Shown in pieces: positions 1 to 28,433 of a stretch of DNA of 28,592 nt. The stretch is taken from NCBI GenBank assembly GCA_000004985.1, contig GG738959.1. The stretch is one strand, 5' to 3'. Positions within the stretch are counted from its first letter, which is position 1, and each line of letters opens with the position of its first letter. The stretch comes from Naegleria gruberi (taxonomy: Eukaryota). Both the position numbers and the translations under genes were made by a program. The notes under the pieces were generated by a model. It was not told the origin of the DNA. It searched no databases and saw only the letters and a list, made by a program, of their open reading frames with translations.

Positions 1-435
1 ACCCAAACCCAAACCCAAACCCAAACCCAAACCCAAACCCAAACCCAAACCCAAACCCAAACCCAAACCCAAACCCAAACCCAAACCCAAACCCAAACCC
101 AAACCCAAACCCAAACCCAAACCCAAACCCAAACCCAAACCCAAACCCAAACCCAAACCCAAACCCAAACCCAAACCCAAACCCAAACCCAAACCCAAAC
201 CCAAACCCAAACCCAAACCCAAACCCAAACCCAAACCCAAACCCAAACCCAAACCCAAACCCAAACCCAAACCCAAACCCAAACCCAAACCCAAACCCAA
301 ACCCAAACCCAAACCCAAACCCAAACCCAAACCCAAACCCAAACCCAAACCCAAACCCAAACCCAAACCCAAACCCAAACCCAAACCAAAACCCCAACCA
401 AACCCAAACCCAAACCCAAACCCAAACCCAAACCC
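1..435. repeat. Telomeric repeat array (CCCAAA)n on + strand = (TTTGGG)n G-strand; ~72 hexamer units; chromosome-left-end orientation
   Basis: Direct reading: perfect 6-bp periodicity from nt 1. Variant units CCAAAA / CCCCAA / CCAAA occur at 385-404 just before the array ends at 435 (..aaccc|tgata). The C-rich strand runs 5'->3' inward, as expected for a left telomere. Confidence 0.95.
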
Positions 436-4756: not shown

Positions 4757-5578
4757 TTAGCACAACAGGCATTTTTCCTTTTTGTTTAGAACTGGAGCTT
4801 TGATAAGTTTCGAATAGATAAACGTCTTGACAATCAAATCTTCCAATTCTTCCAGTCCAACAAACTCTCTTGAAGATGTTGTCACATAGCTCACAGCACC
4901 CATCCGCTGAGATAGTTTCTTTCCATACGAATCATACTTTTTACACAAATAACTATTCCAATATTTTCCCAAATGAAAATCTCCTGGTTTTGAATAATCA
5001 CAAATATCAGATTTTGTTCCAACGACCAATACTGATCTGTTGTAATCCAAAAATGGTTGAATTTCTGGAAGAAATCTATCAGAAAAATCCTTCAAACACT
5101 TATTCATCATTACTGGATTTGATATTGAATAGCACATTATAAAAATGTGACACTTGGATGGTGTATCATAAGAATAAGGAGTGTCAACTAATTGTAAACA
5201 ATAACCTTCAATCCTCTTAATATCACACGAATTATAGTAACGGGGAACAGAAAAACCCTCTTCCGAATCATTGTATCTTTCATACCTAAGGTGAAGATAG
5301 TAACACAGAGTGGTCTTTCCAATACCATGTGGCCCAATGAAGCAACATCGAATTGGCTCTGATTCTTTCAGTAAATTTGCATATTCCTCCAATTTGAAAT
5401 TCTCACAAAATGTCTCAAAGTTTTCAATTTCTTCCGAATATGAACCTCGCCACATCCAATCACTATTTAAAAGATTGAACCAAATGGTATTGACCAACAT
5501 AAGTTGGAGATGTTCGGAAAATGAAAGAAATTTATCAACGATCGTGATGGTATCCAGTGGCAAGAGATTTAATGACAT
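4757..5578 (-). CDS. Divergent Ras/Rho-superfamily small GTPase-fold protein, probably catalytically impaired (pseudo-GTPase-like). The ORF is open up to 5683, but its first ~24 codons are a tRNA-like sequence, so the first plausible ATG is 5576-5578 (alternatives 5498-5500 and 5453-5455)
   Basis: P-loop 'GPHGIGKTT' (GxxxxGK[ST]). Rho-like layout 'VDTPYSYD' in place of DTAGQE, then 'IFIMCYSISNP...LPEIQPF...VLVVGTKSDI' where Rho has 'VFLICFSVDSP...VGNKKDL'. G4 is TKSD instead of NKxD. The switch-I Thr is replaced ('VPRYYNS' against 'VPTVFEN'). C-terminus is polybasic plus 'KCLLC', followed by a TAA stop at 4757-4759. Confidence 0.6.
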   Translation of the reverse strand: MSLNLLPLDTITIVDKFLSFSEHLQLMLVNTIWFNLLNSDWMWRGSYSEEIENFETFCENFKLEEYANLLKESEPIRCCFIGPHGIGKTTLCYYLHLRYERYNDSEEGFSVPRYYNSCDIKRIEGYCLQLVDTPYSYDTPSKCHIFIMCYSISNPVMMNKCLKDFSDRFLPEIQPFLDYNRSVLVVGTKSDICDYSKPGDFHLGKYWNSYLCKKYDSYGKKLSQRMGAVSYVTTSSREFVGLEELEDLIVKTFIYSKLIKAPVLNKKEKCLLC

Positions 5579-5611
5579 TTTTTGATATGATTGAAGAAAA
5601 TAACGATGGTT

Positions 5612-5686
5612 AAAAAAACAGTCCGACCACAGGATGACAGTTGTTCTTGCTACAGTCCCATGCTCTACCAGCTGAGCTATCATCGG
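5612..5686 (-). pseudogene. tRNA-Tyr(GUA)-like gene relic: acceptor 5' half, D-arm, anticodon arm with a 14-nt intron-like insert and variable region, but no T-arm; ends in a T7 run
   Basis: Minus-strand sequence CCGATGA-TA-GCTCAGCTGGTAGAGC-A-TGGGA-CTGTAG-[CAAGAACAACTGTC]-A-TCCTG-TGGTC-GGACTG-TTTTTTT. The first 37 nt match canonical eukaryotic tRNA-Tyr at roughly 31 of 37 positions; from memory the human gene reads CCTTCGATAGCTCAGCTGGTAGAGCGGAGGACTGTAG|intron|ATCCTTAGGTC.... An A-box is present. No GGTTCGANTCC B-box or T-arm follows 'TGGTC'. The ORF-track ATG at 5681-5683 lies inside the acceptor stem. Confidence 0.6.
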
Positions 5687-5867
5687 TATCGATCTTTTTG
5701 AAAAACAATATATGGTTTACCCATTTCCCCACAAAATAAATACACACCCTATTAAATAATATTAATTGTTGATGCCAGATTCATTGCAATATTTGACAAG
5801 AAGAGTAACACTTTTATTGTCAAGTAATCTGTAGGTAGAGAAGGAAGCCAGGTAAAAAAATAATGAG

Positions 5868-6014
5868 ATGAGCAATGGAATAACAAGAACCCTTCAAAAT
5901 ATGCAACAAACACAATTACATCTCAAAAAGAGTAGTGAAAATTTATCAAACTTGTTGGCTGCTATTGAATCACGTCAGCAACCTGTTGTTGAAAATAAAG
6001 AAGGTTCTTATTAA
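5868..6014 (+). CDS. Small ORF, 48 aa (MSNGITRTLQNMQQTQLHLKKSSENLSNLLAAIESRQQPVVENKEGSY); speculative small coiled-coil protein or chance ORF
   Basis: ATG at 5868 and TAA at 6012-6014. The residue composition looks protein-like rather than the I/N/K/Y/F bias of random AT-rich ORFs, and local GC is raised. There is no recognisable family, and the ORF is below the ORF-track size cutoff. Confidence 0.15.
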   Translation: MSNGITRTLQNMQQTQLHLKKSSENLSNLLAAIESRQQPVVENKEGSY

Positions 6015-6163
6015 GGTGGCGGTATGGTGTTCCGAAATAGGCAGCTAATCATCAAAAAAAAATTTGTTATGATGAAAAATGTTTTACTCCTTTCCTCTCT
6101 TTCTGCTCATGTGATAATAGCACATCACACCTTCATCTTTAATTTTGCAAACAATATTGCTAT

Positions 6164-7312
6164 CTAGCGTTTTTGAATTTTTTCCTGATGAAACCCNNNN
6201 NNNNNNNNNNNNNNNNNNNNNNNNNNNNNNNNNNNNNNNNNNNNNNATTGCAATGTTTTTGGATCTCTTTGTATGCTCCTCATTACAAAACTATCAAGAG
6301 CATAATCGTCATCTAGTTCTTCATAGATTGAGCTAATTACTGAATCAGGAAGGTCGTGTTGTGTAATCTTCTTGATAGCATATTCTGTCGATAATTCCTT
6401 CCAATTTGCATACAATACAACTAGTGGATTAATTTTGATGAGTTCCAAAACATATTCAATATCTCCTTGAATATTACTAATAGCATACTGAATACATTGC
6501 GGAAAGTTGACAATTAATTCTGAAATATAAGTAATATCACTTCTCAATTGTAAGTGAGCATATCTAAATAGTGAAGGATCAAAAGGCAGAATATCATTCT
6601 TGAAAAATTCACGATCTTCCTTCAATTTTGAACTGGCAAACATGATTGCCGAATGTGAACTCATGACAGCAGCTTTAACAACCTCCTTATCTGCACTAAA
6701 GCAGTGCTTGATATCAGAATCTTCCAACATGTATCCTTCCTTTGAGACTACTAACAAGGCAATATCTCTATCCTTTCTCATTCTTTCCTTCAAATAATAG
6801 TAACACTTGTAATTCCATTCAATGGCTTCCATAATGAAAGCCTTGTCGTTTTGCAACTCTTCACTAGCTTGACCCAATATCTGACAATAATTAGTATTGG
6901 CTATTATTTTCAAAAGTCATTCCCTGTCATTGGAATAATAAGGCAATTCCAAAAAGTTGTAACATGAAACATTTCTACTAATCAACTCTCTTACATAATA
7001 TGGTTTCATCATGTTTGGAGAGCATTTAGAAACAACATAAGGAACATAAGAGACAGCCTTCAAGATGATTTCCGAAAAGAATCGATTATCTTTCAAATTG
7101 TCTATTAATCTAAGAAACTCATCCATTGAATAATAAACGTTAGAAAAATCCAAAGAATTCAATAAACACCTTTCACACTTCCATTCAAAACGCTCATCAA
7201 GATAACGTTCTTTAAGAGCCTCACTTCCCAAAGAATCATCTGTGGCCGGAAAGATTTTTCGTTGGTTTGAAGCAGGAAAGATTTTTAAGCAAAAATTTTT
7301 CCTGGATCTCAC
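6164..7312 (-). CDS. DUF4116-type repeat protein gene, probably a pseudogene or sequence error. Two same-frame ORFs (6917..7312 and 6164..6913) are separated by a single TGA at 6917-6919, and the span also contains a 50-N gap
   Basis: Repeated ~25-aa units resemble the DUF4116 consensus (ALqYASeELrnDkEvVlaAv...): 'QILGQASEELQNDKAFIMEAIEW', 'DKEVVKAAVMSSHSAIMFASSKLKEDREFFKND', 'IQYAISNIQGDIEYVLELIKINPLVVLYANWKEL'. The upstream ORF begins with GTG at 7310-7312; its first in-frame ATG is 7124-7126. The downstream ORF begins with TTG; its first in-frame ATG is 6830-6832, which lies downstream of clearly homologous repeat coding sequence. The C-terminal frame across the N gap is uncertain (the apparent TAG at 6164-6166 assumes frame continuity across 50 N). 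Confidence 0.5.
6197..6246. other. 50-N scaffold gap inside the DUF4116-like ORF
   Basis: Literal n run. Confidence 0.99.
7246..7299 (-). repeat. 27-bp tandem duplication (2 copies) in the 5' region of the DUF4116-like ORF
   Basis: 'ccggaaagatttttcgttggtttgaag' (7246-7272) and 'caggaaagatttttaagcaaaaatttt' (7273-7299). On the minus strand this encodes ..KIFPASNQR KIFPATD... Confidence 0.6.
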
Positions 7313-9598: not shown

Positions 9599-12500
9599 NN
9601 NNNNNNNNNNNNNNNNNNNNNNNNNNNNNNNNNNNNNNNNNNNNNNNNNNNNNNNNNNNNNNNNNNNNNNNNNNNNNNNNNNNNNNNNNNNNNNNNNNNN
9701 NNNNNNNNNNNNNNNNNNNNNNNNNNNNNNNNNNNNNNNNNNNNNNNNNNNNNNNNNNNNNNNNNNNNNNNNNNNNNNNNNNNNNNNNNNNNNNNNNNNN
9801 NNNNNNNNNNNNNNNNNNNNNNNNNNNNNNNNNNNNNNNNNNNNNNNNNNNNNNNNNNNNNNNNNNNNNNNNNNNNNNNNNNNNNNNNNNNNNNNNNNNN
9901 NNNNNNNNNNNNNNNNNNNNNNNNNNNNNNNNNNNNNNNNNNNNNNNNNNNNNNNNNNNNNNNNNNNNNNNNNNNNNNNNNNNNNNNNNNNNNNNNNNNN
10001 NNNNNNNNNNNNNNNNNNNNNNNNNNNNNNNNNNNNNNNNNNNNNNNNNNNNNNNNNNNNNNNNNNNNNNNNNNNNNNNNNNNNNNNNNNNNNNNNNNNN
10101 NNNNNNNNNNNNNNNNNNNNNNNNNNNNNNNNNNNNNNNNNNNNNNNNNNNNNNNNNNNNNNNNNNNNNNNNNNNNNNNNNNNNNNNNNNNNNNNNNNNN
10201 NNNNNNNNNNNNNNNNNNNNNNNNNNNNNNNNNNNNNNNNNNNNNNNNNNNNNNNNNNNNNNNNNNNNNNNNNNNNNNNNNNNNNNNNNNNNNNNNNNNN
10301 NNNNNNNNNNNNNNNNNNNNNNNNNNNNNNNNNNNNNNNNNNNNNNNNNNNNNNNNNNNNNNNNNNNNNNNNNNNNNNNNNNNNNNNNNNNNNNNNNNNN
10401 NNNNNNNNNNNNNNNNNNNNNNNNNNNNNNNNNNNNNNNNNNNNNNNNNNNNNNNNNNNNNNNNNNNNNNNNNNNNNNNNNNNNNNNNNNNNNNNNNNNN
10501 NNNNNNNNNNNNNNNNNNNNNNNNNNNNNNNNNNNNNNNNNNNNNNNNNNNNNNNNNNNNNNNNNNNNNNNNNNNNNNNNNNNNNNNNNNNNNNNNNNNN
10601 NNNNNNNNNNNNNNNNNNNNNNNNNNNNNNNNNNNNNNNNNNNNNNNNNNNNNNNNNNNNNNNNNNNNNNNNNNNNNNNNNNNNNNNNNNNNNNNNNNNN
10701 NNNNNNNNNNNNNNNNNNNNNNNNNNNNNNNNNNNNNNNNNNNNNNNNNNNNNNNNNNNNNNNNNNNNNNNNNNNNNNNNNNNNNNNNNNNNNNNNNNNN
10801 NNNNNNNNNNNNNNNNNNNNNNNNNNNNNNNNNNNNNNNNNNNNNNNNNNNNNNNNNNNNNNNNNNNNNNNNNNNNNNNNNNNNNNNNNNNNNNNNNNNN
10901 NNNNNNNNNNNNNNNNNNNNNNNNNNNNNNNNNNNNNNNNNNNNNNNNNNNNNNNNNNNNNNNNNNNNNNNNNNNNNNNNNNNNNNNNNNNNNNNNNNNN
11001 NNNNNNNNNNNNNNNNNNNNNNNNNNNNNNNNNNNNNNNNNNNNNNNNNNNNNNNNNNNNNNNNNNNNNNNNNNNNNNNNNNNNNNNNNNNNNNNNNNNN
11101 NNNNNNNNNNNNNNNNNNNNNNNNNNNNNNNNNNNNNNNNNNNNNNNNNNNNNNNNNNNNNNNNNNNNNNNNNNNNNNNNNNNNNNNNNNNNNNNNNNNN
11201 NNNNNNNNNNNNNNNNNNNNNNNNNNNNNNNNNNNNNNNNNNNNNNNNNNNNNNNNNNNNNNNNNNNNNNNNNNNNNNNNNNNNNNNNNNNNNNNNNNNN
11301 NNNNNNNNNNNNNNNNNNNNNNNNNNNNNNNNNNNNNNNNNNNNNNNNNNNNNNNNNNNNNNNNNNNNNNNNNNNNNNNNNNNNNNNNNNNNNNNNNNNN
11401 NNNNNNNNNNNNNNNNNNNNNNNNNNNNNNNNNNNNNNNNNNNNNNNNNNNNNNNNNNNNNNNNNNNNNNNNNNNNNNNNNNNNNNNNNNNNNNNNNNNN
11501 NNNNNNNNNNNNNNNNNNNNNNNNNNNNNNNNNNNNNNNNNNNNNNNNNNNNNNNNNNNNNNNNNNNNNNNNNNNNNNNNNNNNNNNNNNNNNNNNNNNN
11601 NNNNNNNNNNNNNNNNNNNNNNNNNNNNNNNNNNNNNNNNNNNNNNNNNNNNNNNNNNNNNNNNNNNNNNNNNNNNNNNNNNNNNNNNNNNNNNNNNNNN
11701 NNNNNNNNNNNNNNNNNNNNNNNNNNNNNNNNNNNNNNNNNNNNNNNNNNNNNNNNNNNNNNNNNNNNNNNNNNNNNNNNNNNNNNNNNNNNNNNNNNNN
11801 NNNNNNNNNNNNNNNNNNNNNNNNNNNNNNNNNNNNNNNNNNNNNNNNNNNNNNNNNNNNNNNNNNNNNNNNNNNNNNNNNNNNNNNNNNNNNNNNNNNN
11901 NNNNNNNNNNNNNNNNNNNNNNNNNNNNNNNNNNNNNNNNNNNNNNNNNNNNNNNNNNNNNNNNNNNNNNNNNNNNNNNNNNNNNNNNNNNNNNNNNNNN
12001 NNNNNNNNNNNNNNNNNNNNNNNNNNNNNNNNNNNNNNNNNNNNNNNNNNNNNNNNNNNNNNNNNNNNNNNNNNNNNNNNNNNNNNNNNNNNNNNNNNNN
12101 NNNNNNNNNNNNNNNNNNNNNNNNNNNNNNNNNNNNNNNNNNNNNNNNNNNNNNNNNNNNNNNNNNNNNNNNNNNNNNNNNNNNNNNNNNNNNNNNNNNN
12201 NNNNNNNNNNNNNNNNNNNNNNNNNNNNNNNNNNNNNNNNNNNNNNNNNNNNNNNNNNNNNNNNNNNNNNNNNNNNNNNNNNNNNNNNNNNNNNNNNNNN
12301 NNNNNNNNNNNNNNNNNNNNNNNNNNNNNNNNNNNNNNNNNNNNNNNNNNNNNNNNNNNNNNNNNNNNNNNNNNNNNNNNNNNNNNNNNNNNNNNNNNNN
12401 NNNNNNNNNNNNNNNNNNNNNNNNNNNNNNNNNNNNNNNNNNNNNNNNNNNNNNNNNNNNNNNNNNNNNNNNNNNNNNNNNNNNNNNNNNNNNNNNNNNN

Positions 12501-15500
12501 NNNNNNNNNNNNNNNNNNNNNNNNNNNNNNNNNNNNNNNNNNNNNNNNNNNNNNNNNNNNNNNNNNNNNNNNNNNNNNNNNNNNNNNNNNNNNNNNNNNN
12601 NNNNNNNNNNNNNNNNNNNNNNNNNNNNNNNNNNNNNNNNNNNNNNNNNNNNNNNNNNNNNNNNNNNNNNNNNNNNNNNNNNNNNNNNNNNNNNNNNNNN
12701 NNNNNNNNNNNNNNNNNNNNNNNNNNNNNNNNNNNNNNNNNNNNNNNNNNNNNNNNNNNNNNNNNNNNNNNNNNNNNNNNNNNNNNNNNNNNNNNNNNNN
12801 NNNNNNNNNNNNNNNNNNNNNNNNNNNNNNNNNNNNNNNNNNNNNNNNNNNNNNNNNNNNNNNNNNNNNNNNNNNNNNNNNNNNNNNNNNNNNNNNNNNN
12901 NNNNNNNNNNNNNNNNNNNNNNNNNNNNNNNNNNNNNNNNNNNNNNNNNNNNNNNNNNNNNNNNNNNNNNNNNNNNNNNNNNNNNNNNNNNNNNNNNNNN
13001 NNNNNNNNNNNNNNNNNNNNNNNNNNNNNNNNNNNNNNNNNNNNNNNNNNNNNNNNNNNNNNNNNNNNNNNNNNNNNNNNNNNNNNNNNNNNNNNNNNNN
13101 NNNNNNNNNNNNNNNNNNNNNNNNNNNNNNNNNNNNNNNNNNNNNNNNNNNNNNNNNNNNNNNNNNNNNNNNNNNNNNNNNNNNNNNNNNNNNNNNNNNN
13201 NNNNNNNNNNNNNNNNNNNNNNNNNNNNNNNNNNNNNNNNNNNNNNNNNNNNNNNNNNNNNNNNNNNNNNNNNNNNNNNNNNNNNNNNNNNNNNNNNNNN
13301 NNNNNNNNNNNNNNNNNNNNNNNNNNNNNNNNNNNNNNNNNNNNNNNNNNNNNNNNNNNNNNNNNNNNNNNNNNNNNNNNNNNNNNNNNNNNNNNNNNNN
13401 NNNNNNNNNNNNNNNNNNNNNNNNNNNNNNNNNNNNNNNNNNNNNNNNNNNNNNNNNNNNNNNNNNNNNNNNNNNNNNNNNNNNNNNNNNNNNNNNNNNN
13501 NNNNNNNNNNNNNNNNNNNNNNNNNNNNNNNNNNNNNNNNNNNNNNNNNNNNNNNNNNNNNNNNNNNNNNNNNNNNNNNNNNNNNNNNNNNNNNNNNNNN
13601 NNNNNNNNNNNNNNNNNNNNNNNNNNNNNNNNNNNNNNNNNNNNNNNNNNNNNNNNNNNNNNNNNNNNNNNNNNNNNNNNNNNNNNNNNNNNNNNNNNNN
13701 NNNNNNNNNNNNNNNNNNNNNNNNNNNNNNNNNNNNNNNNNNNNNNNNNNNNNNNNNNNNNNNNNNNNNNNNNNNNNNNNNNNNNNNNNNNNNNNNNNNN
13801 NNNNNNNNNNNNNNNNNNNNNNNNNNNNNNNNNNNNNNNNNNNNNNNNNNNNNNNNNNNNNNNNNNNNNNNNNNNNNNNNNNNNNNNNNNNNNNNNNNNN
13901 NNNNNNNNNNNNNNNNNNNNNNNNNNNNNNNNNNNNNNNNNNNNNNNNNNNNNNNNNNNNNNNNNNNNNNNNNNNNNNNNNNNNNNNNNNNNNNNNNNNN
14001 NNNNNNNNNNNNNNNNNNNNNNNNNNNNNNNNNNNNNNNNNNNNNNNNNNNNNNNNNNNNNNNNNNNNNNNNNNNNNNNNNNNNNNNNNNNNNNNNNNNN
14101 NNNNNNNNNNNNNNNNNNNNNNNNNNNNNNNNNNNNNNNNNNNNNNNNNNNNNNNNNNNNNNNNNNNNNNNNNNNNNNNNNNNNNNNNNNNNNNNNNNNN
14201 NNNNNNNNNNNNNNNNNNNNNNNNNNNNNNNNNNNNNNNNNNNNNNNNNNNNNNNNNNNNNNNNNNNNNNNNNNNNNNNNNNNNNNNNNNNNNNNNNNNN
14301 NNNNNNNNNNNNNNNNNNNNNNNNNNNNNNNNNNNNNNNNNNNNNNNNNNNNNNNNNNNNNNNNNNNNNNNNNNNNNNNNNNNNNNNNNNNNNNNNNNNN
14401 NNNNNNNNNNNNNNNNNNNNNNNNNNNNNNNNNNNNNNNNNNNNNNNNNNNNNNNNNNNNNNNNNNNNNNNNNNNNNNNNNNNNNNNNNNNNNNNNNNNN
14501 NNNNNNNNNNNNNNNNNNNNNNNNNNNNNNNNNNNNNNNNNNNNNNNNNNNNNNNNNNNNNNNNNNNNNNNNNNNNNNNNNNNNNNNNNNNNNNNNNNNN
14601 NNNNNNNNNNNNNNNNNNNNNNNNNNNNNNNNNNNNNNNNNNNNNNNNNNNNNNNNNNNNNNNNNNNNNNNNNNNNNNNNNNNNNNNNNNNNNNNNNNNN
14701 NNNNNNNNNNNNNNNNNNNNNNNNNNNNNNNNNNNNNNNNNNNNNNNNNNNNNNNNNNNNNNNNNNNNNNNNNNNNNNNNNNNNNNNNNNNNNNNNNNNN
14801 NNNNNNNNNNNNNNNNNNNNNNNNNNNNNNNNNNNNNNNNNNNNNNNNNNNNNNNNNNNNNNNNNNNNNNNNNNNNNNNNNNNNNNNNNNNNNNNNNNNN
14901 NNNNNNNNNNNNNNNNNNNNNNNNNNNNNNNNNNNNNNNNNNNNNNNNNNNNNNNNNNNNNNNNNNNNNNNNNNNNNNNNNNNNNNNNNNNNNNNNNNNN
15001 NNNNNNNNNNNNNNNNNNNNNNNNNNNNNNNNNNNNNNNNNNNNNNNNNNNNNNNNNNNNNNNNNNNNNNNNNNNNNNNNNNNNNNNNNNNNNNNNNNNN
15101 NNNNNNNNNNNNNNNNNNNNNNNNNNNNNNNNNNNNNNNNNNNNNNNNNNNNNNNNNNNNNNNNNNNNNNNNNNNNNNNNNNNNNNNNNNNNNNNNNNNN
15201 NNNNNNNNNNNNNNNNNNNNNNNNNNNNNNNNNNNNNNNNNNNNNNNNNNNNNNNNNNNNNNNNNNNNNNNNNNNNNNNNNNNNNNNNNNNNNNNNNNNN
15301 NNNNNNNNNNNNNNNNNNNNNNNNNNNNNNNNNNNNNNNNNNNNNNNNNNNNNNNNNNNNNNNNNNNNNNNNNNNNNNNNNNNNNNNNNNNNNNNNNNNN
15401 NNNNNNNNNNNNNNNNNNNNNNNNNNNNNNNNNNNNNNNNNNNNNNNNNNNNNNNNNNNNNNNNNNNNNNNNNNNNNNNNNNNNNNNNNNNNNNNNNNNN

Positions 15501-18500
15501 NNNNNNNNNNNNNNNNNNNNNNNNNNNNNNNNNNNNNNNNNNNNNNNNNNNNNNNNNNNNNNNNNNNNNNNNNNNNNNNNNNNNNNNNNNNNNNNNNNNN
15601 NNNNNNNNNNNNNNNNNNNNNNNNNNNNNNNNNNNNNNNNNNNNNNNNNNNNNNNNNNNNNNNNNNNNNNNNNNNNNNNNNNNNNNNNNNNNNNNNNNNN
15701 NNNNNNNNNNNNNNNNNNNNNNNNNNNNNNNNNNNNNNNNNNNNNNNNNNNNNNNNNNNNNNNNNNNNNNNNNNNNNNNNNNNNNNNNNNNNNNNNNNNN
15801 NNNNNNNNNNNNNNNNNNNNNNNNNNNNNNNNNNNNNNNNNNNNNNNNNNNNNNNNNNNNNNNNNNNNNNNNNNNNNNNNNNNNNNNNNNNNNNNNNNNN
15901 NNNNNNNNNNNNNNNNNNNNNNNNNNNNNNNNNNNNNNNNNNNNNNNNNNNNNNNNNNNNNNNNNNNNNNNNNNNNNNNNNNNNNNNNNNNNNNNNNNNN
16001 NNNNNNNNNNNNNNNNNNNNNNNNNNNNNNNNNNNNNNNNNNNNNNNNNNNNNNNNNNNNNNNNNNNNNNNNNNNNNNNNNNNNNNNNNNNNNNNNNNNN
16101 NNNNNNNNNNNNNNNNNNNNNNNNNNNNNNNNNNNNNNNNNNNNNNNNNNNNNNNNNNNNNNNNNNNNNNNNNNNNNNNNNNNNNNNNNNNNNNNNNNNN
16201 NNNNNNNNNNNNNNNNNNNNNNNNNNNNNNNNNNNNNNNNNNNNNNNNNNNNNNNNNNNNNNNNNNNNNNNNNNNNNNNNNNNNNNNNNNNNNNNNNNNN
16301 NNNNNNNNNNNNNNNNNNNNNNNNNNNNNNNNNNNNNNNNNNNNNNNNNNNNNNNNNNNNNNNNNNNNNNNNNNNNNNNNNNNNNNNNNNNNNNNNNNNN
16401 NNNNNNNNNNNNNNNNNNNNNNNNNNNNNNNNNNNNNNNNNNNNNNNNNNNNNNNNNNNNNNNNNNNNNNNNNNNNNNNNNNNNNNNNNNNNNNNNNNNN
16501 NNNNNNNNNNNNNNNNNNNNNNNNNNNNNNNNNNNNNNNNNNNNNNNNNNNNNNNNNNNNNNNNNNNNNNNNNNNNNNNNNNNNNNNNNNNNNNNNNNNN
16601 NNNNNNNNNNNNNNNNNNNNNNNNNNNNNNNNNNNNNNNNNNNNNNNNNNNNNNNNNNNNNNNNNNNNNNNNNNNNNNNNNNNNNNNNNNNNNNNNNNNN
16701 NNNNNNNNNNNNNNNNNNNNNNNNNNNNNNNNNNNNNNNNNNNNNNNNNNNNNNNNNNNNNNNNNNNNNNNNNNNNNNNNNNNNNNNNNNNNNNNNNNNN
16801 NNNNNNNNNNNNNNNNNNNNNNNNNNNNNNNNNNNNNNNNNNNNNNNNNNNNNNNNNNNNNNNNNNNNNNNNNNNNNNNNNNNNNNNNNNNNNNNNNNNN
16901 NNNNNNNNNNNNNNNNNNNNNNNNNNNNNNNNNNNNNNNNNNNNNNNNNNNNNNNNNNNNNNNNNNNNNNNNNNNNNNNNNNNNNNNNNNNNNNNNNNNN
17001 NNNNNNNNNNNNNNNNNNNNNNNNNNNNNNNNNNNNNNNNNNNNNNNNNNNNNNNNNNNNNNNNNNNNNNNNNNNNNNNNNNNNNNNNNNNNNNNNNNNN
17101 NNNNNNNNNNNNNNNNNNNNNNNNNNNNNNNNNNNNNNNNNNNNNNNNNNNNNNNNNNNNNNNNNNNNNNNNNNNNNNNNNNNNNNNNNNNNNNNNNNNN
17201 NNNNNNNNNNNNNNNNNNNNNNNNNNNNNNNNNNNNNNNNNNNNNNNNNNNNNNNNNNNNNNNNNNNNNNNNNNNNNNNNNNNNNNNNNNNNNNNNNNNN
17301 NNNNNNNNNNNNNNNNNNNNNNNNNNNNNNNNNNNNNNNNNNNNNNNNNNNNNNNNNNNNNNNNNNNNNNNNNNNNNNNNNNNNNNNNNNNNNNNNNNNN
17401 NNNNNNNNNNNNNNNNNNNNNNNNNNNNNNNNNNNNNNNNNNNNNNNNNNNNNNNNNNNNNNNNNNNNNNNNNNNNNNNNNNNNNNNNNNNNNNNNNNNN
17501 NNNNNNNNNNNNNNNNNNNNNNNNNNNNNNNNNNNNNNNNNNNNNNNNNNNNNNNNNNNNNNNNNNNNNNNNNNNNNNNNNNNNNNNNNNNNNNNNNNNN
17601 NNNNNNNNNNNNNNNNNNNNNNNNNNNNNNNNNNNNNNNNNNNNNNNNNNNNNNNNNNNNNNNNNNNNNNNNNNNNNNNNNNNNNNNNNNNNNNNNNNNN
17701 NNNNNNNNNNNNNNNNNNNNNNNNNNNNNNNNNNNNNNNNNNNNNNNNNNNNNNNNNNNNNNNNNNNNNNNNNNNNNNNNNNNNNNNNNNNNNNNNNNNN
17801 NNNNNNNNNNNNNNNNNNNNNNNNNNNNNNNNNNNNNNNNNNNNNNNNNNNNNNNNNNNNNNNNNNNNNNNNNNNNNNNNNNNNNNNNNNNNNNNNNNNN
17901 NNNNNNNNNNNNNNNNNNNNNNNNNNNNNNNNNNNNNNNNNNNNNNNNNNNNNNNNNNNNNNNNNNNNNNNNNNNNNNNNNNNNNNNNNNNNNNNNNNNN
18001 NNNNNNNNNNNNNNNNNNNNNNNNNNNNNNNNNNNNNNNNNNNNNNNNNNNNNNNNNNNNNNNNNNNNNNNNNNNNNNNNNNNNNNNNNNNNNNNNNNNN
18101 NNNNNNNNNNNNNNNNNNNNNNNNNNNNNNNNNNNNNNNNNNNNNNNNNNNNNNNNNNNNNNNNNNNNNNNNNNNNNNNNNNNNNNNNNNNNNNNNNNNN
18201 NNNNNNNNNNNNNNNNNNNNNNNNNNNNNNNNNNNNNNNNNNNNNNNNNNNNNNNNNNNNNNNNNNNNNNNNNNNNNNNNNNNNNNNNNNNNNNNNNNNN
18301 NNNNNNNNNNNNNNNNNNNNNNNNNNNNNNNNNNNNNNNNNNNNNNNNNNNNNNNNNNNNNNNNNNNNNNNNNNNNNNNNNNNNNNNNNNNNNNNNNNNN
18401 NNNNNNNNNNNNNNNNNNNNNNNNNNNNNNNNNNNNNNNNNNNNNNNNNNNNNNNNNNNNNNNNNNNNNNNNNNNNNNNNNNNNNNNNNNNNNNNNNNNN

Positions 18501-21500
18501 NNNNNNNNNNNNNNNNNNNNNNNNNNNNNNNNNNNNNNNNNNNNNNNNNNNNNNNNNNNNNNNNNNNNNNNNNNNNNNNNNNNNNNNNNNNNNNNNNNNN
18601 NNNNNNNNNNNNNNNNNNNNNNNNNNNNNNNNNNNNNNNNNNNNNNNNNNNNNNNNNNNNNNNNNNNNNNNNNNNNNNNNNNNNNNNNNNNNNNNNNNNN
18701 NNNNNNNNNNNNNNNNNNNNNNNNNNNNNNNNNNNNNNNNNNNNNNNNNNNNNNNNNNNNNNNNNNNNNNNNNNNNNNNNNNNNNNNNNNNNNNNNNNNN
18801 NNNNNNNNNNNNNNNNNNNNNNNNNNNNNNNNNNNNNNNNNNNNNNNNNNNNNNNNNNNNNNNNNNNNNNNNNNNNNNNNNNNNNNNNNNNNNNNNNNNN
18901 NNNNNNNNNNNNNNNNNNNNNNNNNNNNNNNNNNNNNNNNNNNNNNNNNNNNNNNNNNNNNNNNNNNNNNNNNNNNNNNNNNNNNNNNNNNNNNNNNNNN
19001 NNNNNNNNNNNNNNNNNNNNNNNNNNNNNNNNNNNNNNNNNNNNNNNNNNNNNNNNNNNNNNNNNNNNNNNNNNNNNNNNNNNNNNNNNNNNNNNNNNNN
19101 NNNNNNNNNNNNNNNNNNNNNNNNNNNNNNNNNNNNNNNNNNNNNNNNNNNNNNNNNNNNNNNNNNNNNNNNNNNNNNNNNNNNNNNNNNNNNNNNNNNN
19201 NNNNNNNNNNNNNNNNNNNNNNNNNNNNNNNNNNNNNNNNNNNNNNNNNNNNNNNNNNNNNNNNNNNNNNNNNNNNNNNNNNNNNNNNNNNNNNNNNNNN
19301 NNNNNNNNNNNNNNNNNNNNNNNNNNNNNNNNNNNNNNNNNNNNNNNNNNNNNNNNNNNNNNNNNNNNNNNNNNNNNNNNNNNNNNNNNNNNNNNNNNNN
19401 NNNNNNNNNNNNNNNNNNNNNNNNNNNNNNNNNNNNNNNNNNNNNNNNNNNNNNNNNNNNNNNNNNNNNNNNNNNNNNNNNNNNNNNNNNNNNNNNNNNN
19501 NNNNNNNNNNNNNNNNNNNNNNNNNNNNNNNNNNNNNNNNNNNNNNNNNNNNNNNNNNNNNNNNNNNNNNNNNNNNNNNNNNNNNNNNNNNNNNNNNNNN
19601 NNNNNNNNNNNNNNNNNNNNNNNNNNNNNNNNNNNNNNNNNNNNNNNNNNNNNNNNNNNNNNNNNNNNNNNNNNNNNNNNNNNNNNNNNNNNNNNNNNNN
19701 NNNNNNNNNNNNNNNNNNNNNNNNNNNNNNNNNNNNNNNNNNNNNNNNNNNNNNNNNNNNNNNNNNNNNNNNNNNNNNNNNNNNNNNNNNNNNNNNNNNN
19801 NNNNNNNNNNNNNNNNNNNNNNNNNNNNNNNNNNNNNNNNNNNNNNNNNNNNNNNNNNNNNNNNNNNNNNNNNNNNNNNNNNNNNNNNNNNNNNNNNNNN
19901 NNNNNNNNNNNNNNNNNNNNNNNNNNNNNNNNNNNNNNNNNNNNNNNNNNNNNNNNNNNNNNNNNNNNNNNNNNNNNNNNNNNNNNNNNNNNNNNNNNNN
20001 NNNNNNNNNNNNNNNNNNNNNNNNNNNNNNNNNNNNNNNNNNNNNNNNNNNNNNNNNNNNNNNNNNNNNNNNNNNNNNNNNNNNNNNNNNNNNNNNNNNN
20101 NNNNNNNNNNNNNNNNNNNNNNNNNNNNNNNNNNNNNNNNNNNNNNNNNNNNNNNNNNNNNNNNNNNNNNNNNNNNNNNNNNNNNNNNNNNNNNNNNNNN
20201 NNNNNNNNNNNNNNNNNNNNNNNNNNNNNNNNNNNNNNNNNNNNNNNNNNNNNNNNNNNNNNNNNNNNNNNNNNNNNNNNNNNNNNNNNNNNNNNNNNNN
20301 NNNNNNNNNNNNNNNNNNNNNNNNNNNNNNNNNNNNNNNNNNNNNNNNNNNNNNNNNNNNNNNNNNNNNNNNNNNNNNNNNNNNNNNNNNNNNNNNNNNN
20401 NNNNNNNNNNNNNNNNNNNNNNNNNNNNNNNNNNNNNNNNNNNNNNNNNNNNNNNNNNNNNNNNNNNNNNNNNNNNNNNNNNNNNNNNNNNNNNNNNNNN
20501 NNNNNNNNNNNNNNNNNNNNNNNNNNNNNNNNNNNNNNNNNNNNNNNNNNNNNNNNNNNNNNNNNNNNNNNNNNNNNNNNNNNNNNNNNNNNNNNNNNNN
20601 NNNNNNNNNNNNNNNNNNNNNNNNNNNNNNNNNNNNNNNNNNNNNNNNNNNNNNNNNNNNNNNNNNNNNNNNNNNNNNNNNNNNNNNNNNNNNNNNNNNN
20701 NNNNNNNNNNNNNNNNNNNNNNNNNNNNNNNNNNNNNNNNNNNNNNNNNNNNNNNNNNNNNNNNNNNNNNNNNNNNNNNNNNNNNNNNNNNNNNNNNNNN
20801 NNNNNNNNNNNNNNNNNNNNNNNNNNNNNNNNNNNNNNNNNNNNNNNNNNNNNNNNNNNNNNNNNNNNNNNNNNNNNNNNNNNNNNNNNNNNNNNNNNNN
20901 NNNNNNNNNNNNNNNNNNNNNNNNNNNNNNNNNNNNNNNNNNNNNNNNNNNNNNNNNNNNNNNNNNNNNNNNNNNNNNNNNNNNNNNNNNNNNNNNNNNN
21001 NNNNNNNNNNNNNNNNNNNNNNNNNNNNNNNNNNNNNNNNNNNNNNNNNNNNNNNNNNNNNNNNNNNNNNNNNNNNNNNNNNNNNNNNNNNNNNNNNNNN
21101 NNNNNNNNNNNNNNNNNNNNNNNNNNNNNNNNNNNNNNNNNNNNNNNNNNNNNNNNNNNNNNNNNNNNNNNNNNNNNNNNNNNNNNNNNNNNNNNNNNNN
21201 NNNNNNNNNNNNNNNNNNNNNNNNNNNNNNNNNNNNNNNNNNNNNNNNNNNNNNNNNNNNNNNNNNNNNNNNNNNNNNNNNNNNNNNNNNNNNNNNNNNN
21301 NNNNNNNNNNNNNNNNNNNNNNNNNNNNNNNNNNNNNNNNNNNNNNNNNNNNNNNNNNNNNNNNNNNNNNNNNNNNNNNNNNNNNNNNNNNNNNNNNNNN
21401 NNNNNNNNNNNNNNNNNNNNNNNNNNNNNNNNNNNNNNNNNNNNNNNNNNNNNNNNNNNNNNNNNNNNNNNNNNNNNNNNNNNNNNNNNNNNNNNNNNNN

Positions 21501-24500
21501 NNNNNNNNNNNNNNNNNNNNNNNNNNNNNNNNNNNNNNNNNNNNNNNNNNNNNNNNNNNNNNNNNNNNNNNNNNNNNNNNNNNNNNNNNNNNNNNNNNNN
21601 NNNNNNNNNNNNNNNNNNNNNNNNNNNNNNNNNNNNNNNNNNNNNNNNNNNNNNNNNNNNNNNNNNNNNNNNNNNNNNNNNNNNNNNNNNNNNNNNNNNN
21701 NNNNNNNNNNNNNNNNNNNNNNNNNNNNNNNNNNNNNNNNNNNNNNNNNNNNNNNNNNNNNNNNNNNNNNNNNNNNNNNNNNNNNNNNNNNNNNNNNNNN
21801 NNNNNNNNNNNNNNNNNNNNNNNNNNNNNNNNNNNNNNNNNNNNNNNNNNNNNNNNNNNNNNNNNNNNNNNNNNNNNNNNNNNNNNNNNNNNNNNNNNNN
21901 NNNNNNNNNNNNNNNNNNNNNNNNNNNNNNNNNNNNNNNNNNNNNNNNNNNNNNNNNNNNNNNNNNNNNNNNNNNNNNNNNNNNNNNNNNNNNNNNNNNN
22001 NNNNNNNNNNNNNNNNNNNNNNNNNNNNNNNNNNNNNNNNNNNNNNNNNNNNNNNNNNNNNNNNNNNNNNNNNNNNNNNNNNNNNNNNNNNNNNNNNNNN
22101 NNNNNNNNNNNNNNNNNNNNNNNNNNNNNNNNNNNNNNNNNNNNNNNNNNNNNNNNNNNNNNNNNNNNNNNNNNNNNNNNNNNNNNNNNNNNNNNNNNNN
22201 NNNNNNNNNNNNNNNNNNNNNNNNNNNNNNNNNNNNNNNNNNNNNNNNNNNNNNNNNNNNNNNNNNNNNNNNNNNNNNNNNNNNNNNNNNNNNNNNNNNN
22301 NNNNNNNNNNNNNNNNNNNNNNNNNNNNNNNNNNNNNNNNNNNNNNNNNNNNNNNNNNNNNNNNNNNNNNNNNNNNNNNNNNNNNNNNNNNNNNNNNNNN
22401 NNNNNNNNNNNNNNNNNNNNNNNNNNNNNNNNNNNNNNNNNNNNNNNNNNNNNNNNNNNNNNNNNNNNNNNNNNNNNNNNNNNNNNNNNNNNNNNNNNNN
22501 NNNNNNNNNNNNNNNNNNNNNNNNNNNNNNNNNNNNNNNNNNNNNNNNNNNNNNNNNNNNNNNNNNNNNNNNNNNNNNNNNNNNNNNNNNNNNNNNNNNN
22601 NNNNNNNNNNNNNNNNNNNNNNNNNNNNNNNNNNNNNNNNNNNNNNNNNNNNNNNNNNNNNNNNNNNNNNNNNNNNNNNNNNNNNNNNNNNNNNNNNNNN
22701 NNNNNNNNNNNNNNNNNNNNNNNNNNNNNNNNNNNNNNNNNNNNNNNNNNNNNNNNNNNNNNNNNNNNNNNNNNNNNNNNNNNNNNNNNNNNNNNNNNNN
22801 NNNNNNNNNNNNNNNNNNNNNNNNNNNNNNNNNNNNNNNNNNNNNNNNNNNNNNNNNNNNNNNNNNNNNNNNNNNNNNNNNNNNNNNNNNNNNNNNNNNN
22901 NNNNNNNNNNNNNNNNNNNNNNNNNNNNNNNNNNNNNNNNNNNNNNNNNNNNNNNNNNNNNNNNNNNNNNNNNNNNNNNNNNNNNNNNNNNNNNNNNNNN
23001 NNNNNNNNNNNNNNNNNNNNNNNNNNNNNNNNNNNNNNNNNNNNNNNNNNNNNNNNNNNNNNNNNNNNNNNNNNNNNNNNNNNNNNNNNNNNNNNNNNNN
23101 NNNNNNNNNNNNNNNNNNNNNNNNNNNNNNNNNNNNNNNNNNNNNNNNNNNNNNNNNNNNNNNNNNNNNNNNNNNNNNNNNNNNNNNNNNNNNNNNNNNN
23201 NNNNNNNNNNNNNNNNNNNNNNNNNNNNNNNNNNNNNNNNNNNNNNNNNNNNNNNNNNNNNNNNNNNNNNNNNNNNNNNNNNNNNNNNNNNNNNNNNNNN
23301 NNNNNNNNNNNNNNNNNNNNNNNNNNNNNNNNNNNNNNNNNNNNNNNNNNNNNNNNNNNNNNNNNNNNNNNNNNNNNNNNNNNNNNNNNNNNNNNNNNNN
23401 NNNNNNNNNNNNNNNNNNNNNNNNNNNNNNNNNNNNNNNNNNNNNNNNNNNNNNNNNNNNNNNNNNNNNNNNNNNNNNNNNNNNNNNNNNNNNNNNNNNN
23501 NNNNNNNNNNNNNNNNNNNNNNNNNNNNNNNNNNNNNNNNNNNNNNNNNNNNNNNNNNNNNNNNNNNNNNNNNNNNNNNNNNNNNNNNNNNNNNNNNNNN
23601 NNNNNNNNNNNNNNNNNNNNNNNNNNNNNNNNNNNNNNNNNNNNNNNNNNNNNNNNNNNNNNNNNNNNNNNNNNNNNNNNNNNNNNNNNNNNNNNNNNNN
23701 NNNNNNNNNNNNNNNNNNNNNNNNNNNNNNNNNNNNNNNNNNNNNNNNNNNNNNNNNNNNNNNNNNNNNNNNNNNNNNNNNNNNNNNNNNNNNNNNNNNN
23801 NNNNNNNNNNNNNNNNNNNNNNNNNNNNNNNNNNNNNNNNNNNNNNNNNNNNNNNNNNNNNNNNNNNNNNNNNNNNNNNNNNNNNNNNNNNNNNNNNNNN
23901 NNNNNNNNNNNNNNNNNNNNNNNNNNNNNNNNNNNNNNNNNNNNNNNNNNNNNNNNNNNNNNNNNNNNNNNNNNNNNNNNNNNNNNNNNNNNNNNNNNNN
24001 NNNNNNNNNNNNNNNNNNNNNNNNNNNNNNNNNNNNNNNNNNNNNNNNNNNNNNNNNNNNNNNNNNNNNNNNNNNNNNNNNNNNNNNNNNNNNNNNNNNN
24101 NNNNNNNNNNNNNNNNNNNNNNNNNNNNNNNNNNNNNNNNNNNNNNNNNNNNNNNNNNNNNNNNNNNNNNNNNNNNNNNNNNNNNNNNNNNNNNNNNNNN
24201 NNNNNNNNNNNNNNNNNNNNNNNNNNNNNNNNNNNNNNNNNNNNNNNNNNNNNNNNNNNNNNNNNNNNNNNNNNNNNNNNNNNNNNNNNNNNNNNNNNNN
24301 NNNNNNNNNNNNNNNNNNNNNNNNNNNNNNNNNNNNNNNNNNNNNNNNNNNNNNNNNNNNNNNNNNNNNNNNNNNNNNNNNNNNNNNNNNNNNNNNNNNN
24401 NNNNNNNNNNNNNNNNNNNNNNNNNNNNNNNNNNNNNNNNNNNNNNNNNNNNNNNNNNNNNNNNNNNNNNNNNNNNNNNNNNNNNNNNNNNNNNNNNNNN

Positions 24501-27512: not shown

Positions 27513-28143
27513 TTTGAATAATGTTTTGATTGTTTTTTTCATTAACATTTTGTGAATTTTGCTTATTGGATTTATACCATTTTCGGTAGTTGTATAAATG
27601 GTCAATTAACAATAGTGTTATGTAGTATTATTGACTAATTATCATTTTAGGAAGAATTTAACATTGATTACAAAAGGATATAATCTAAATTTCGTAATTA
27701 TTAACCTCATCCTTTTCCATCATTATAAATTCTTCATAGGGGATAACATCTATTAATTCATTTACGAATTTTATGAAGAAAATCAGCATTTTCCTTCGAT
27801 AAATAAATAATTAAACAATACTATCATCTTTATCAATTCTAAAAAACCTCTTCATCATCTTCCGTAGCGAATTTTAAGAAGAAAAAAGGCGGGTTCAACG
27901 CTACCTATTCAATTAAGCCATTTTATTTTTAAAATGTAATCTTCAATTTTATTAAAAAATTTTAAAAAAAAATTGTTGATCATCAACACACCTAAAAGAA
28001 CTTTTTTCAGTGTGTGTAATATTGATAGAATACAATCATACAACAACAACAAAATCATCATTATATTAATAAGAGAATAAGCCTTTTAAGCTTGTCCACA
28101 ATATCATCACTTTTACAGTAAGCCTAAGAATAATACCAACAAC
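27513..28143. promoter_or_regulatory. Divergent (head-to-head) intergenic region between the SDR-like gene (-) and the API5-like gene (+), a putative bidirectional promoter; contains an isolated GC-rich 18-mer 'ggcgggttcaacgctacc' (27888-27905) and the palindrome GTTGAT-c-ATCAAC (27974-27986)
   Basis: Position between divergently oriented start codons. The motifs were read directly. No functional evidence. Confidence 0.3.
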
Positions 28144-28311: not shown

Positions 28312-28433
28312 GTATGTTTTGAACAATCAAAGGTTGGATCTAACTGTGAATGTATTACCACATGAATTATATGATCAAATAATTTTAATATTACTATCAT
28401 CCTTATCATAATTTAATTTTAAAATAATAACAG
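28312..28433 (+). other. Spliceosomal intron, 122 nt, GTATGT...(ctaac-like motifs)...AACAG
   Basis: Unspliced reading hits TGA at 28363-28365. Splicing 28311|28434 keeps phase 0 and brings the conserved API5 block into frame. Confidence 0.55.

What the first reader, a model, noticed from the sequence alone, without database searches (positions are those of the whole stretch)
5612..5686. Truncated tRNA-Tyr(GUA)-like element with intron-like insert and T7 run, forming the apparent N-terminus of the GTPase ORF
The minus strand reads as tRNA-Tyr through acceptor 5' half, D-arm, anticodon stem-loop (GTA), a 14-nt insert exactly at the canonical 37/38 intron position, the 3' anticodon stem and the variable region. 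The T-arm and 3' acceptor are then replaced by GGACTG+TTTTTTT, a Pol III-terminator-like run. Without a B-box this is most likely a dead tRNA gene or a tRNA-derived relic (a SINE-like head). The ORF-track start codon at 5681-5683 sits inside the acceptor stem, so the first 24 'codons' (MIAQLVEHGTVARTTVILWSDCFF) are almost certainly not protein-coding and the GTPase gene starts further downstream. The intron-bearing form implies it derives from a genomic tRNA-Tyr gene rather than a retro-copied mature tRNA.
Basis: partly seen in the sequence, partly recalled or inferred. Interest (0 to 1): 0.6.

Follow-up and report, generated by a model that had tools for sequence, protein, structure and literature searches.

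The report
Dead tyrosine tRNA gene missing T-arm
This is a broken copy of a tyrosine tRNA gene near a chromosome end of the amoeba Naegleria gruberi that lost 22 bases from its middle, so it is an ordinary pseudogene that also makes the neighbouring GTPase gene look 35 codons too long.

Summary
The window is a 28,592-bp subtelomeric scaffold of Naegleria gruberi with only 9,497 real bases. On the minus strand at 5686-5612 there is a genuine tRNA-Tyr(GUA)-derived sequence. It has the acceptor 5' strand, D-arm, anticodon arm, a 14-nt intron at 37/38 and a variable loop.

The 3' part is not foreign sequence. Alignment to three intact intron-bearing tRNA-Tyr genes with the same acceptor stem gives a single 22-nt gap, covering the 17-nt T-arm plus 5 nt of the 3' acceptor strand. 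G71-G72-A73, a short trailer and the oligo-T terminator are retained. Putting 22 nt back makes ARAGORN call tRNA-Tyr(gta) with a 14-nt intron. As it stands, ARAGORN finds nothing and the Rfam tRNA model scores 16.3 bits (threshold 29; intact genes score about 60).

There is no B box, no stable fold, no second copy in the window and no target-site duplication. I read it as a young, internally deleted tRNA pseudogene, not a SINE head.

The ATG at 5683-5681 is in frame with the GTPase only because of this deletion. All three related proteins start at M36 (ATG 5578-5576). One relative has an in-frame TAA two codons upstream of that ATG. This is ordinary and of low interest.

The parts
5680..5686 (-). 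Acceptor stem 5' strand CCGATGA (tRNA positions 1-7). It contains the spurious ORF start ATG at 5683-5681.
   Evidence: The same 7-mer is the acceptor strand of the intact tRNA-Tyr genes L001, L002 and L004.
5662..5679 (-). U8-A9 plus D-arm GCTC/AGCTGGTA/GAGC. It carries an A-box-like TAGCTCAGCTGG.
   Evidence: (a unique exact 16-mer, 0.01 expected by chance).
5630..5661 (-). A26 plus the anticodon arm: TGGGA / CTGTAG (anticodon GTA at 5653-5651) / 14-nt intron 5649-5636 at position 37/38 / A38 / TCCTG.
   Evidence: After in-silico repair ARAGORN reports tRNA-Tyr(gta) with a 14-nt intron, placing the intron one base further 3'.
5625..5629 (-). Variable loop TGGTC (positions 44-48).
   Evidence: It matches CGGTC, CGGTC and TAGTC in the intact comparators.
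5626..5627 (-). Deletion junction. About 22 nt (the 17-nt T-arm plus TCATC of the 3' acceptor strand) are missing here. The position is ambiguous by 2 nt (5627/5626 to 5625/5624) because TC flanks both ends.
   Evidence: Pairwise alignment to L002 gives a single 22-nt gap. Repair at this point restores a callable tRNA-Tyr.
5622..5624 (-). Retained G71, G72 and discriminator A73.
   Evidence: The Rfam alignment places these at the 3' acceptor end. They pair with C2 and C1 in the repaired model.
5612..5621 (-). 3' trailer CTG plus the T7 run, the gene's own Pol III-type terminator.
   Evidence: L001 and L002 have GGA-TG-T8/T7 in the same place.
5576..5578 (-). The real start codon of the F-box-like/Ras-family GTPase gene (M36 of the 308-aa ORF). 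The ORF then runs to 4757.
   Evidence: P0001, P0003 and P0004 start here. The conserved AAAAAATG context and the TAA in L005 at the position of window CAA 5584-5582 support it. The Pfam Ras domain covers residues 113-285.
5579..5683 (-). A spurious 35-codon N-terminal extension (MIAQLVEHGTVARTTVILWSDCFFNHRYFLQSYQK).
   Evidence: It has no counterpart in any relative. With the 22 nt restored, this reading frame ends at TAA just after the T-run.

Best explanation
The element at 5686-5612 (minus strand) is a nuclear, intron-containing tRNA-Tyr(GUA) gene of Naegleria gruberi. It was inactivated by one internal deletion of about 22 nt, which removed the whole T-arm (and so the B box) and the first five bases of the 3' acceptor strand. 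Everything else is still in place: 5' acceptor strand, D-arm/A box, anticodon arm, 14-nt intron, variable loop, G71-G72-A73, trailer and oligo-T terminator.

The deletion lies between short direct repeats (TC, or TCGG if the lost T-stem began with GG). That fits replication slippage or microhomology-mediated repair, which is an inference.

Without a B box, TFIIIC-dependent Pol III transcription should fail. Without a T-arm and a full acceptor stem, any transcript could not fold as a tRNA. It is therefore a non-functional pseudogene lying 34 nt upstream of a GTPase gene.

Because 22 is not a multiple of 3, the deletion happens to put the ATG inside the acceptor strand in frame with the GTPase ORF. 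A CAA stands where a relative has TAA, which also keeps the frame open. Together these create an artefactual 35-codon extension. The true start is ATG 5578-5576.
For: - **Organism and setting.** The scaffold is N. gruberi. The (CCCAAA)n at 1-435 matches the published candidate telomere repeat TTTGGG.
- **tRNA identity.** The Rfam tRNA alignment covers model positions 1-71 but skips 21 positions for the variable loop and T-arm. The D-arm is a unique exact match.
- **Comparators.** Three intact genes share the acceptor stem. ARAGORN calls each tRNA-Tyr(gta) with an intron, and Rfam scores them 60-62 bits.
- **Single deletion.** Alignment to L002 gives one 22-nt gap, and GGA + (C)TG + oligo-T match on the far side.
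- **Repair test.** Restoring 22 nt gives an ARAGORN tRNA-Tyr(gta) call with a 14-nt intron and a 7-bp acceptor stem that uses the window's own GG.
- **As it stands.** ARAGORN finds nothing at the locus even when relaxed. Rfam gives 16.3 bits against a threshold of 29. There is no B box in the window. The fold is no better than shuffled sequence (z +0.15 and +0.41), while intact L001 gives z -2.79.
- **ORF.** Relatives start at M36. The L005 upstream region has no tRNA, has TAA two codons before the ATG, and is similar only from about -28. With the 22 nt restored the upstream ORF stops at TAA.
Against: - No bona fide N. gruberi tRNA-Tyr gene could be retrieved. The size and content of the deletion are inferred from tRNA-Tyr genes of unidentified eukaryotes that share the acceptor stem.
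- Those comparators were found with a pattern taken from the element itself. Identity in the 5' 37 nt is therefore partly circular. Only the 3' part and the cloverleaf logic are independent.
- One alternative alignment (to L001) instead matches ATCC..TCGGA to the 3' side of the T-arm. I rejected it because it ignores the 5/5 TGGGA/TCCTG pairing and the GGTC variable loop.
- The scaffold is small, full of gaps and subtelomeric, so a local assembly error cannot be excluded.
- No expression data were available, so 'not transcribed' is inferred from general Pol III promoter rules, not shown for Naegleria.
Confidence: 0.8

Rival explanations
1. The tRNA-Tyr gene is 3'-truncated at the T-stem by a rearrangement or insertion. 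The T-arm and 3' acceptor are replaced by unrelated sequence that happens to carry a T7 run, and the piece may be the head of a tRNA-derived SINE.
For: The T-arm and B box are absent. N. gruberi is reported to have 924 tDNA loci, so tRNA-related repeats are conceivable (PMC2888827).
Against: The bases after the variable loop are GGA, then 3 nt, then T7. This is what follows TCATC in intact genes with this acceptor stem (GGA-TG-T7/8). Adding 22 nt restores a full cloverleaf that uses the window's own GG. SINE heads keep both A and B boxes. There is only one copy in the window and no flanking direct repeats.
Confidence: 0.07
2. Assembly or sequencing artefact. The real locus carries an intact tRNA-Tyr gene, and 22 nt were lost in the draft assembly of a low-coverage subtelomeric scaffold.
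For: Two thirds of the scaffold is N, with four gaps. The rest of the gene looks undamaged.
Against: A clean 22-nt loss between 2-4-nt direct repeats is more typical of a biological deletion than of an assembly error (my judgement). The same scaffold copy also carries a 198-nt in-frame deletion in the adjacent GTPase relative to P0001, which suggests a decaying duplicate. Neither point is decisive.
Confidence: 0.07
3. A functional T-arm-less tRNA-like RNA. It would be transcribed by Pol III from the A box or an upstream element to the T7 terminator and act as a minimal tRNA, a tRNA-half-like regulator, or a cis element for the GTPase gene.
For: The A box, intron, anticodon arm and terminator are intact. 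CCGAU can pair with GUCGG in the predicted fold. The Rfam alignment accepts TGGTCGG as a 3' acceptor strand.
Against: There is no linker between the anticodon stem and the putative 3' acceptor strand. That stem would have only 5 standard base pairs out of 7 positions (C-G, C-G, G-C, A-U, A-U) plus one U-G wobble and one G-G mismatch. The fold is no more stable than shuffles (z +0.15 and +0.41). There is no B box. The related locus L005 has no such element, so it is not conserved with the gene. No partner small-RNA gene lies upstream. As far as I know, no nuclear cytosolic T-arm-less tRNA has been described.
Confidence: 0.03
4. Residues 1-35 of the 308-aa ORF are genuinely translated, and the tRNA resemblance is incidental to a coding N-terminus.
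For: The ORF is open and in frame from ATG 5683.
Against: None of the three relatives has these residues. L005 has a stop two codons before the conserved ATG, and similarity stops about 28 nt upstream. The frame is open only because of the deletion. The sequence is tRNA-derived beyond chance.
Confidence: 0.03

Closest known systems
Eukaryotic nuclear tRNA-Tyr(GUA) genes with the canonical 37/38 intron
   Same: It shares the acceptor 5' strand, D-arm/A box, anticodon arm, GTA anticodon, a short intron at 37/38, an NGGTC variable loop, G71-G72-A73 and an oligo-T terminator 3 nt after the discriminator. The tRNA-Tyr intron is reported as the most widely conserved tRNA intron in eukaryotes (PMC12168002, abstract seen).
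   Different: It lacks the T-arm/B box and five bases of the 3' acceptor strand. It fails ARAGORN and the Rfam threshold.
tRNA pseudogenes (the decayed or truncated tDNA class that tRNA gene finders flag in eukaryotic genomes)
   Same: It is a tRNA-derived sequence with a disabling structural lesion. It lies in a genome reported to hold 924 tDNA loci (PMC2888827).
   Different: Most described pseudogenes are point-mutated or end-truncated. This one has a clean internal deletion and is otherwise intact, so it looks young.
tRNA-derived SINEs
   Same: Both have a tRNA-like 5' region with an A box.
   Different: SINE heads keep the B box, continue into a tRNA-unrelated body and tail, are multicopy and have target-site duplications. 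None of these features is seen here.
T-arm-less mitochondrial tRNAs of nematodes and other metazoans (TV-replacement loop)
   Same: No T-arm is present, while the acceptor, D and anticodon parts are.
   Different: Those are mitochondrial, keep a full 7-bp acceptor stem and have a 6-12-nt replacement loop. Here the element is nuclear and intron-bearing, has no linker, and five bases of the 3' acceptor strand are missing.

Membership tests
Functional eukaryotic tRNA gene (Rfam RF00005 / cloverleaf) | Score at or above the curated threshold of a tRNA covariance model | tested here: not met
   16.3 bits against a gathering score of 29. Intact comparators score 59.9-62.5 bits.
Functional eukaryotic tRNA gene (Rfam RF00005 / cloverleaf) | D-arm and anticodon arm with a 7-nt loop and a defined anticodon | tested here: met
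   GCTC/GAGC D-stem, TGGGA/TCCTG anticodon stem, and loop CTGTAG(intron)A with anticodon GTA.
Functional eukaryotic tRNA gene (Rfam RF00005 / cloverleaf) | T-arm carrying the B box (GGTTCGANNCC) | tested here: not met
   Absent from the element. There is no match with up to 2 mismatches anywhere in the window.
Functional eukaryotic tRNA gene (Rfam RF00005 / cloverleaf) | 7-bp acceptor stem | tested here: not met
   Only G71 and G72 of the native 3' strand remain. The substitute pairing with TGGTCGG has a G-G mismatch and no linker.
Functional eukaryotic tRNA gene (Rfam RF00005 / cloverleaf) | Detection by a tRNA gene finder in intron mode | tested here: not met
   ARAGORN -i finds nothing at the locus, even at relaxed thresholds. 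tRNAscan-SE was not available.
tRNA-Tyr(GUA) gene lineage (origin, not function) | GTA anticodon, intron at 37/38, C1 with G72, A73, and a genomic 3' trailer with oligo-T instead of CCA | tested here: met
tRNA-derived SINE | Both A and B boxes in the head | tested here: not met
   No B box.
tRNA-derived SINE | Multiple dispersed copies with a shared body, and target-site duplications | tested here: inconclusive
   There is one copy in the 9.5 kb of real sequence and no flanking direct repeats. The rest of the N. gruberi genome could not be searched.
T-arm-less (TV-loop) tRNA | Complete acceptor stem plus a 6-12-nt replacement loop | tested here: not met
   There is no linker between the anticodon stem and TGGTCGG, and the stem is imperfect.
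Ras-superfamily GTPase with an N-terminal extension (coding reading of 5579-5683) | Residues 1-35 conserved in homologues | tested here: not met
   P0001, P0003 and P0004 begin at M36. L005 has a stop upstream and no upstream similarity.

The most novel reading that the evidence does not exclude
The relic is not silent. One possibility is that it is still transcribed from its A box or an upstream element to its own T7 terminator, giving a T-arm-less tRNA-Tyr-like small RNA. The other is that the GTPase mRNA starts upstream of it, so that a 22-nt deletion in a tRNA gene created a new, translated 35-residue N-terminal extension, meaning coding sequence born from a tRNA gene.
Probability: 0.06. 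Interest if true: 0.4.

Novelty: new member of a known kind. Interest (0 to 1): 0.12.

Why it matters
The main value is for annotation. It marks an unannotated tRNA-Tyr pseudogene in the N. gruberi reference. It fixes the start of the adjacent GTPase gene at M36. It also shows that the deposited gene model on this scaffold (XP_002668755.1) skips over both the relic and the GTPase N-terminal half. More generally, it shows how a small deletion in a tRNA gene can create a misleading long ORF. It opens no new biological question unless expression data show the relic is used.

Tried and rejected
- **N. gruberi DNA for related loci.** I tried to fetch it by exact-protein look-up for P0001, P0002, P0003 and both versions of the window ORF. 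Nothing was on record. Only P0004, an ENA cluster member, gave a locus, L005.
- **Collection scans.** The exact 30-mer of the element was not found in the JGI metagenomes. A 36-mer from the GTPase 5' end was not found in the viral contigs.
- **Permuted or split tRNA.** I looked for a T-arm/B box elsewhere in the window and found none. The GATCGATACC just upstream of the element is only a poor B-box match and overlaps C1-C2. This was read by eye and rejected.
- **Trypanosomatid-style arrangement.** I looked for a small-RNA gene divergently upstream that might use the tRNA boxes. Only sub-threshold noise was found in 5680-6196.
- **Alternative alignment.** Placing ATCC..TCGGA on the 3' side of the T-arm (L001 alignment) was rejected, because it discards the anticodon-stem complementarity and the variable-loop match.
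- **Relaxed ARAGORN.** The hits at -ps80 and -ps70 elsewhere in 5300-6000 are implausible, with introns of 44-206 nt, and I treated them as noise.
- **Literature.** Searches for Naegleria tRNA-Tyr or Naegleria tRNA pseudogenes found nothing specific.

Full report
**What the window is.** The 308-aa ORF that contains the finding matches three Naegleria gruberi proteins. One of them, P0002, is 100% identical over the part it shares and sits on a contig of exactly 28,592 bp, so the window is that N. gruberi scaffold. Only 9,497 bases are real. The rest is four runs of N. G+C is 31%. Positions 1-435 are (CCCAAA)n, the complement of TTTGGG, which Fulneckova et al. 2013 reported as the candidate telomere repeat of N. 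gruberi (PMC3622300). The finding therefore lies about 5 kb from a chromosome end, with an uncertain distance because of a 1.5-kb gap.

**Checking the observation.** On the minus strand the sequence reads as follows:

| Part | Sequence | Coordinates |
|---|---|---|
| Acceptor 5' strand | CCGATGA | 5686-5680 |
| U8/A9 | TA | 5679-5678 |
| D-arm | GCTC AGCTGGTA GAGC | 5677-5662 |
| Position 26 | A | 5661 |
| Anticodon stem 5' | TGGGA | 5660-5656 |
| Anticodon loop (anticodon GTA) | CTGTAG | 5655-5650 |
| Intron at 37/38 | CAAGAACAACTGTC | 5649-5636 |
| Position 38 | A | 5635 |
| Anticodon stem 3' | TCCTG | 5634-5630 |
| Variable loop | TGGTC | 5629-5625 |
| G71, G72, A73 | GGA | 5624-5622 |
| Trailer | CTG | 5621-5619 |
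| Oligo-T run | TTTTTTT | 5618-5612 |

- The D-arm 16-mer occurs once in the window, where 0.01 matches are expected even with three mismatches.
- The Rfam tRNA model aligns the element over its full length at 16.3 bits. It skips 21 model positions (variable loop plus T-arm) and uses TGGTCGG+A as the 3' end.
- That score is below the gathering score of 29, and nothing in the window reaches any Rfam threshold.
- ARAGORN finds nothing by default. In intron mode with relaxed thresholds it finds nothing at this locus; the few hits elsewhere in 5300-6000 are noise.
- No B-box-like sequence exists anywhere in the window.

**What the 3' part really is.** A metagenome scan was run with the acceptor strand, D-arm and anticodon loop, leaving the anticodon stem free. 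It returned four contigs from unidentified eukaryotes.

- Three of them (L001, L002, L004) carry intact genes. ARAGORN in intron mode calls each tRNA-Tyr(gta), with introns of 13, 13 and 5 nt. Rfam scores them 59.9-62.5 bits. These serve as both comparators and positive controls.
- After the anticodon stem they read (C/T)(G/A)GTC, then the T-arm (for example CCTGG TTCGAAT CCGGG), then TCATCGG, A73, TG and T7-8.
- A pairwise alignment of the window element to L002 gives a single 22-nt gap. The window reads ...GTGG|TCGGA-CTG-TTTTTTT. L002 reads ...GCGG|TCCCTGGTTCGAATCCGGGTCA|TCGGA-TG-TTTTTTT.

So GGA is G71-G72-A73 of the original gene and the T7 run is its own terminator. What is missing is the 17-nt T-arm plus TCATC of the 3' acceptor strand.

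The junction is flanked by TC on both sides, or by TCGG if the lost T-stem began with GG as in L004. That fits slippage or microhomology-mediated deletion, which is an inference.

As a direct test I reinserted 22 nt from either L002 or L004 between 5627 and 5626. ARAGORN then calls tRNA-Tyr(gta) with a 14-nt intron and a 7-bp acceptor stem closed by the window's own GG. The unrepaired sequence gives nothing. Apart from this one lesion the gene looks undamaged, so the deletion is probably recent.

**Does the remnant look functional?**

- The transcript that would run from C1 to A73 does not fold better than shuffled versions. The z-score is +0.15, or +0.41 with the trailer included, and -1.23 for the spliced form. 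The intact L001 gene gives -2.79.
- The substitute acceptor pairing (CCGATGA with TGGTCGG) has a G-G mismatch and no linker to the anticodon stem.
- There is no B box, so TFIIIC-dependent transcription is not expected. This follows from general knowledge of Pol III type 2 promoters and has not been tested in Naegleria.
- No snRNA or 7SL-type gene lies divergently upstream that could be using the tRNA boxes.
- No direct repeats flank the element, and there is no second copy in the window.
- A related locus (L005, below) has no tRNA-like sequence upstream of the homologous gene. The element is therefore not a conserved part of that gene's control region.

**The ORF question.** The ATG at 5683-5681 is inside the acceptor strand. 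It opens a 308-aa ORF whose residues 113-285 match the Pfam Ras family.

- Three relatives begin at the residue equivalent to M36 (MSLNLLPLD...). They are P0001 (XP_002682426.1, 99% identical), P0003 (XP_002668220.1) and P0004 (from an ENA metagenome). None has residues 1-35.
- P0004 could be traced to a 1,779-nt contig, L005.
- DNA similarity between L005 and the window covers the coding region and only about 28 nt upstream of the shared ATG (TATTTTCTTCAAT...ATAT[C/T]AAAAAATG).
- L005 has TAA two codons before the ATG, where the window has CAA at 5584-5582.
- With the 22 nt restored, the reading frame from ATG 5683 ends at TAA immediately after the T-run.

The 35-codon extension is thus a by-product of the deletion together with that CAA. 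The real start is ATG 5578-5576.

**Comparison with known classes.**

- The element descends from the eukaryotic intron-bearing tRNA-Tyr(GUA) gene lineage but fails the tests for a functional tRNA gene: T-arm/B box, acceptor stem, covariance-model threshold and gene-finder call.
- It is not a SINE head. It has no B box, ends at a tRNA terminator, is a single copy here and has no target-site duplication.
- It is not comparable to the T-arm-less mitochondrial tRNAs, which keep a full acceptor stem and have a replacement loop.
- It belongs with ordinary tRNA pseudogenes. These are unsurprising in a genome reported to contain 924 tDNA loci (PMC2888827).

**Limits.**

- No native N. gruberi tRNA-Tyr gene and no DNA of the 99%-identical P0001 locus could be obtained.
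- The comparators come from other eukaryotes and were found with a pattern derived from the element. Only their 3' parts are independent evidence.
- An assembly error in this gap-rich scaffold cannot be excluded.
- No expression data were available.

**Verdict.** It needs correcting in two respects. The lesion is an internal 22-nt deletion with the native 3' end and terminator retained, not a truncation with foreign replacement, and there is no support for a SINE. This is an ordinary pseudogene plus an annotation artefact, of low interest.

Noticed in passing
window 1-435: (CCCAAA)n with a few variant units, ending at the scaffold edge. This is the complement of TTTGGG, the published candidate telomere repeat of N. 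gruberi (PMC3622300), so the scaffold is a chromosome end.
   Followed up: partly
window 5443-5444 (minus strand, between codons G80 and S81 of the 308-aa ORF): The window GTPase lacks a 66-residue stretch (RITQLD...KNTWS, 198 nt, in frame) that P0001, P0003 and P0004 all have between MWRG and SYSEE. It is otherwise 99% identical to P0001, so this subtelomeric copy looks like a decaying or variant duplicate.
   Followed up: partly
window 5192-6313 (minus strand): The deposited gene model XP_002668755.1 (NAEGRDRAFT_76325, P0002) joins the DUF4116 ORF (...DDYALDSF, ending at 6287) directly to RIEGYCLQ (starting at 5215). It treats the tRNA relic, a 50-N gap and the GTPase N-terminal half with its P-loop as an intron. 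This is probably a fused mis-annotation of two genes.
   Followed up: partly
window 5582-5584 compared with L005 367-369: A single-base difference two codons upstream of the conserved start: CAA in the window and TAA in the related locus. This removes the stop that would otherwise close the upstream reading frame.
   Followed up: yes
L003 138-174 compared with L004 82-118: In an unrelated metagenomic eukaryote, two contigs share the same upstream flank and tRNA-Tyr 5' half. L004 continues as an intact gene with a 5-nt intron. L003 diverges right after CTGTAGGGGA, has no TCATCGG anywhere on that strand of the contig, and is not called as a tRNA by ARAGORN or Rfam. It could be another interrupted tRNA-Tyr gene, a very large insertion at the intron site, or a chimeric contig.
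   Followed up: no
window 6164-6913 (minus strand): An ORF with four DUF4116 repeats (Pfam PF13475, E 3e-29) lies immediately upstream of the relic and is interrupted by a 50-N gap at 6197-6246.
   Followed up: no
window 9599-27045: A single 17,447-base run of N makes up 61% of the scaffold. The linkage between the telomeric 9.6 kb and the right-hand 1.5 kb rests only on scaffolding. The right-hand part holds a minus-strand ORF ending near 27513 and, near 28313-28433, what looks by eye like an intron in a plus-strand gene.
   Followed up: no
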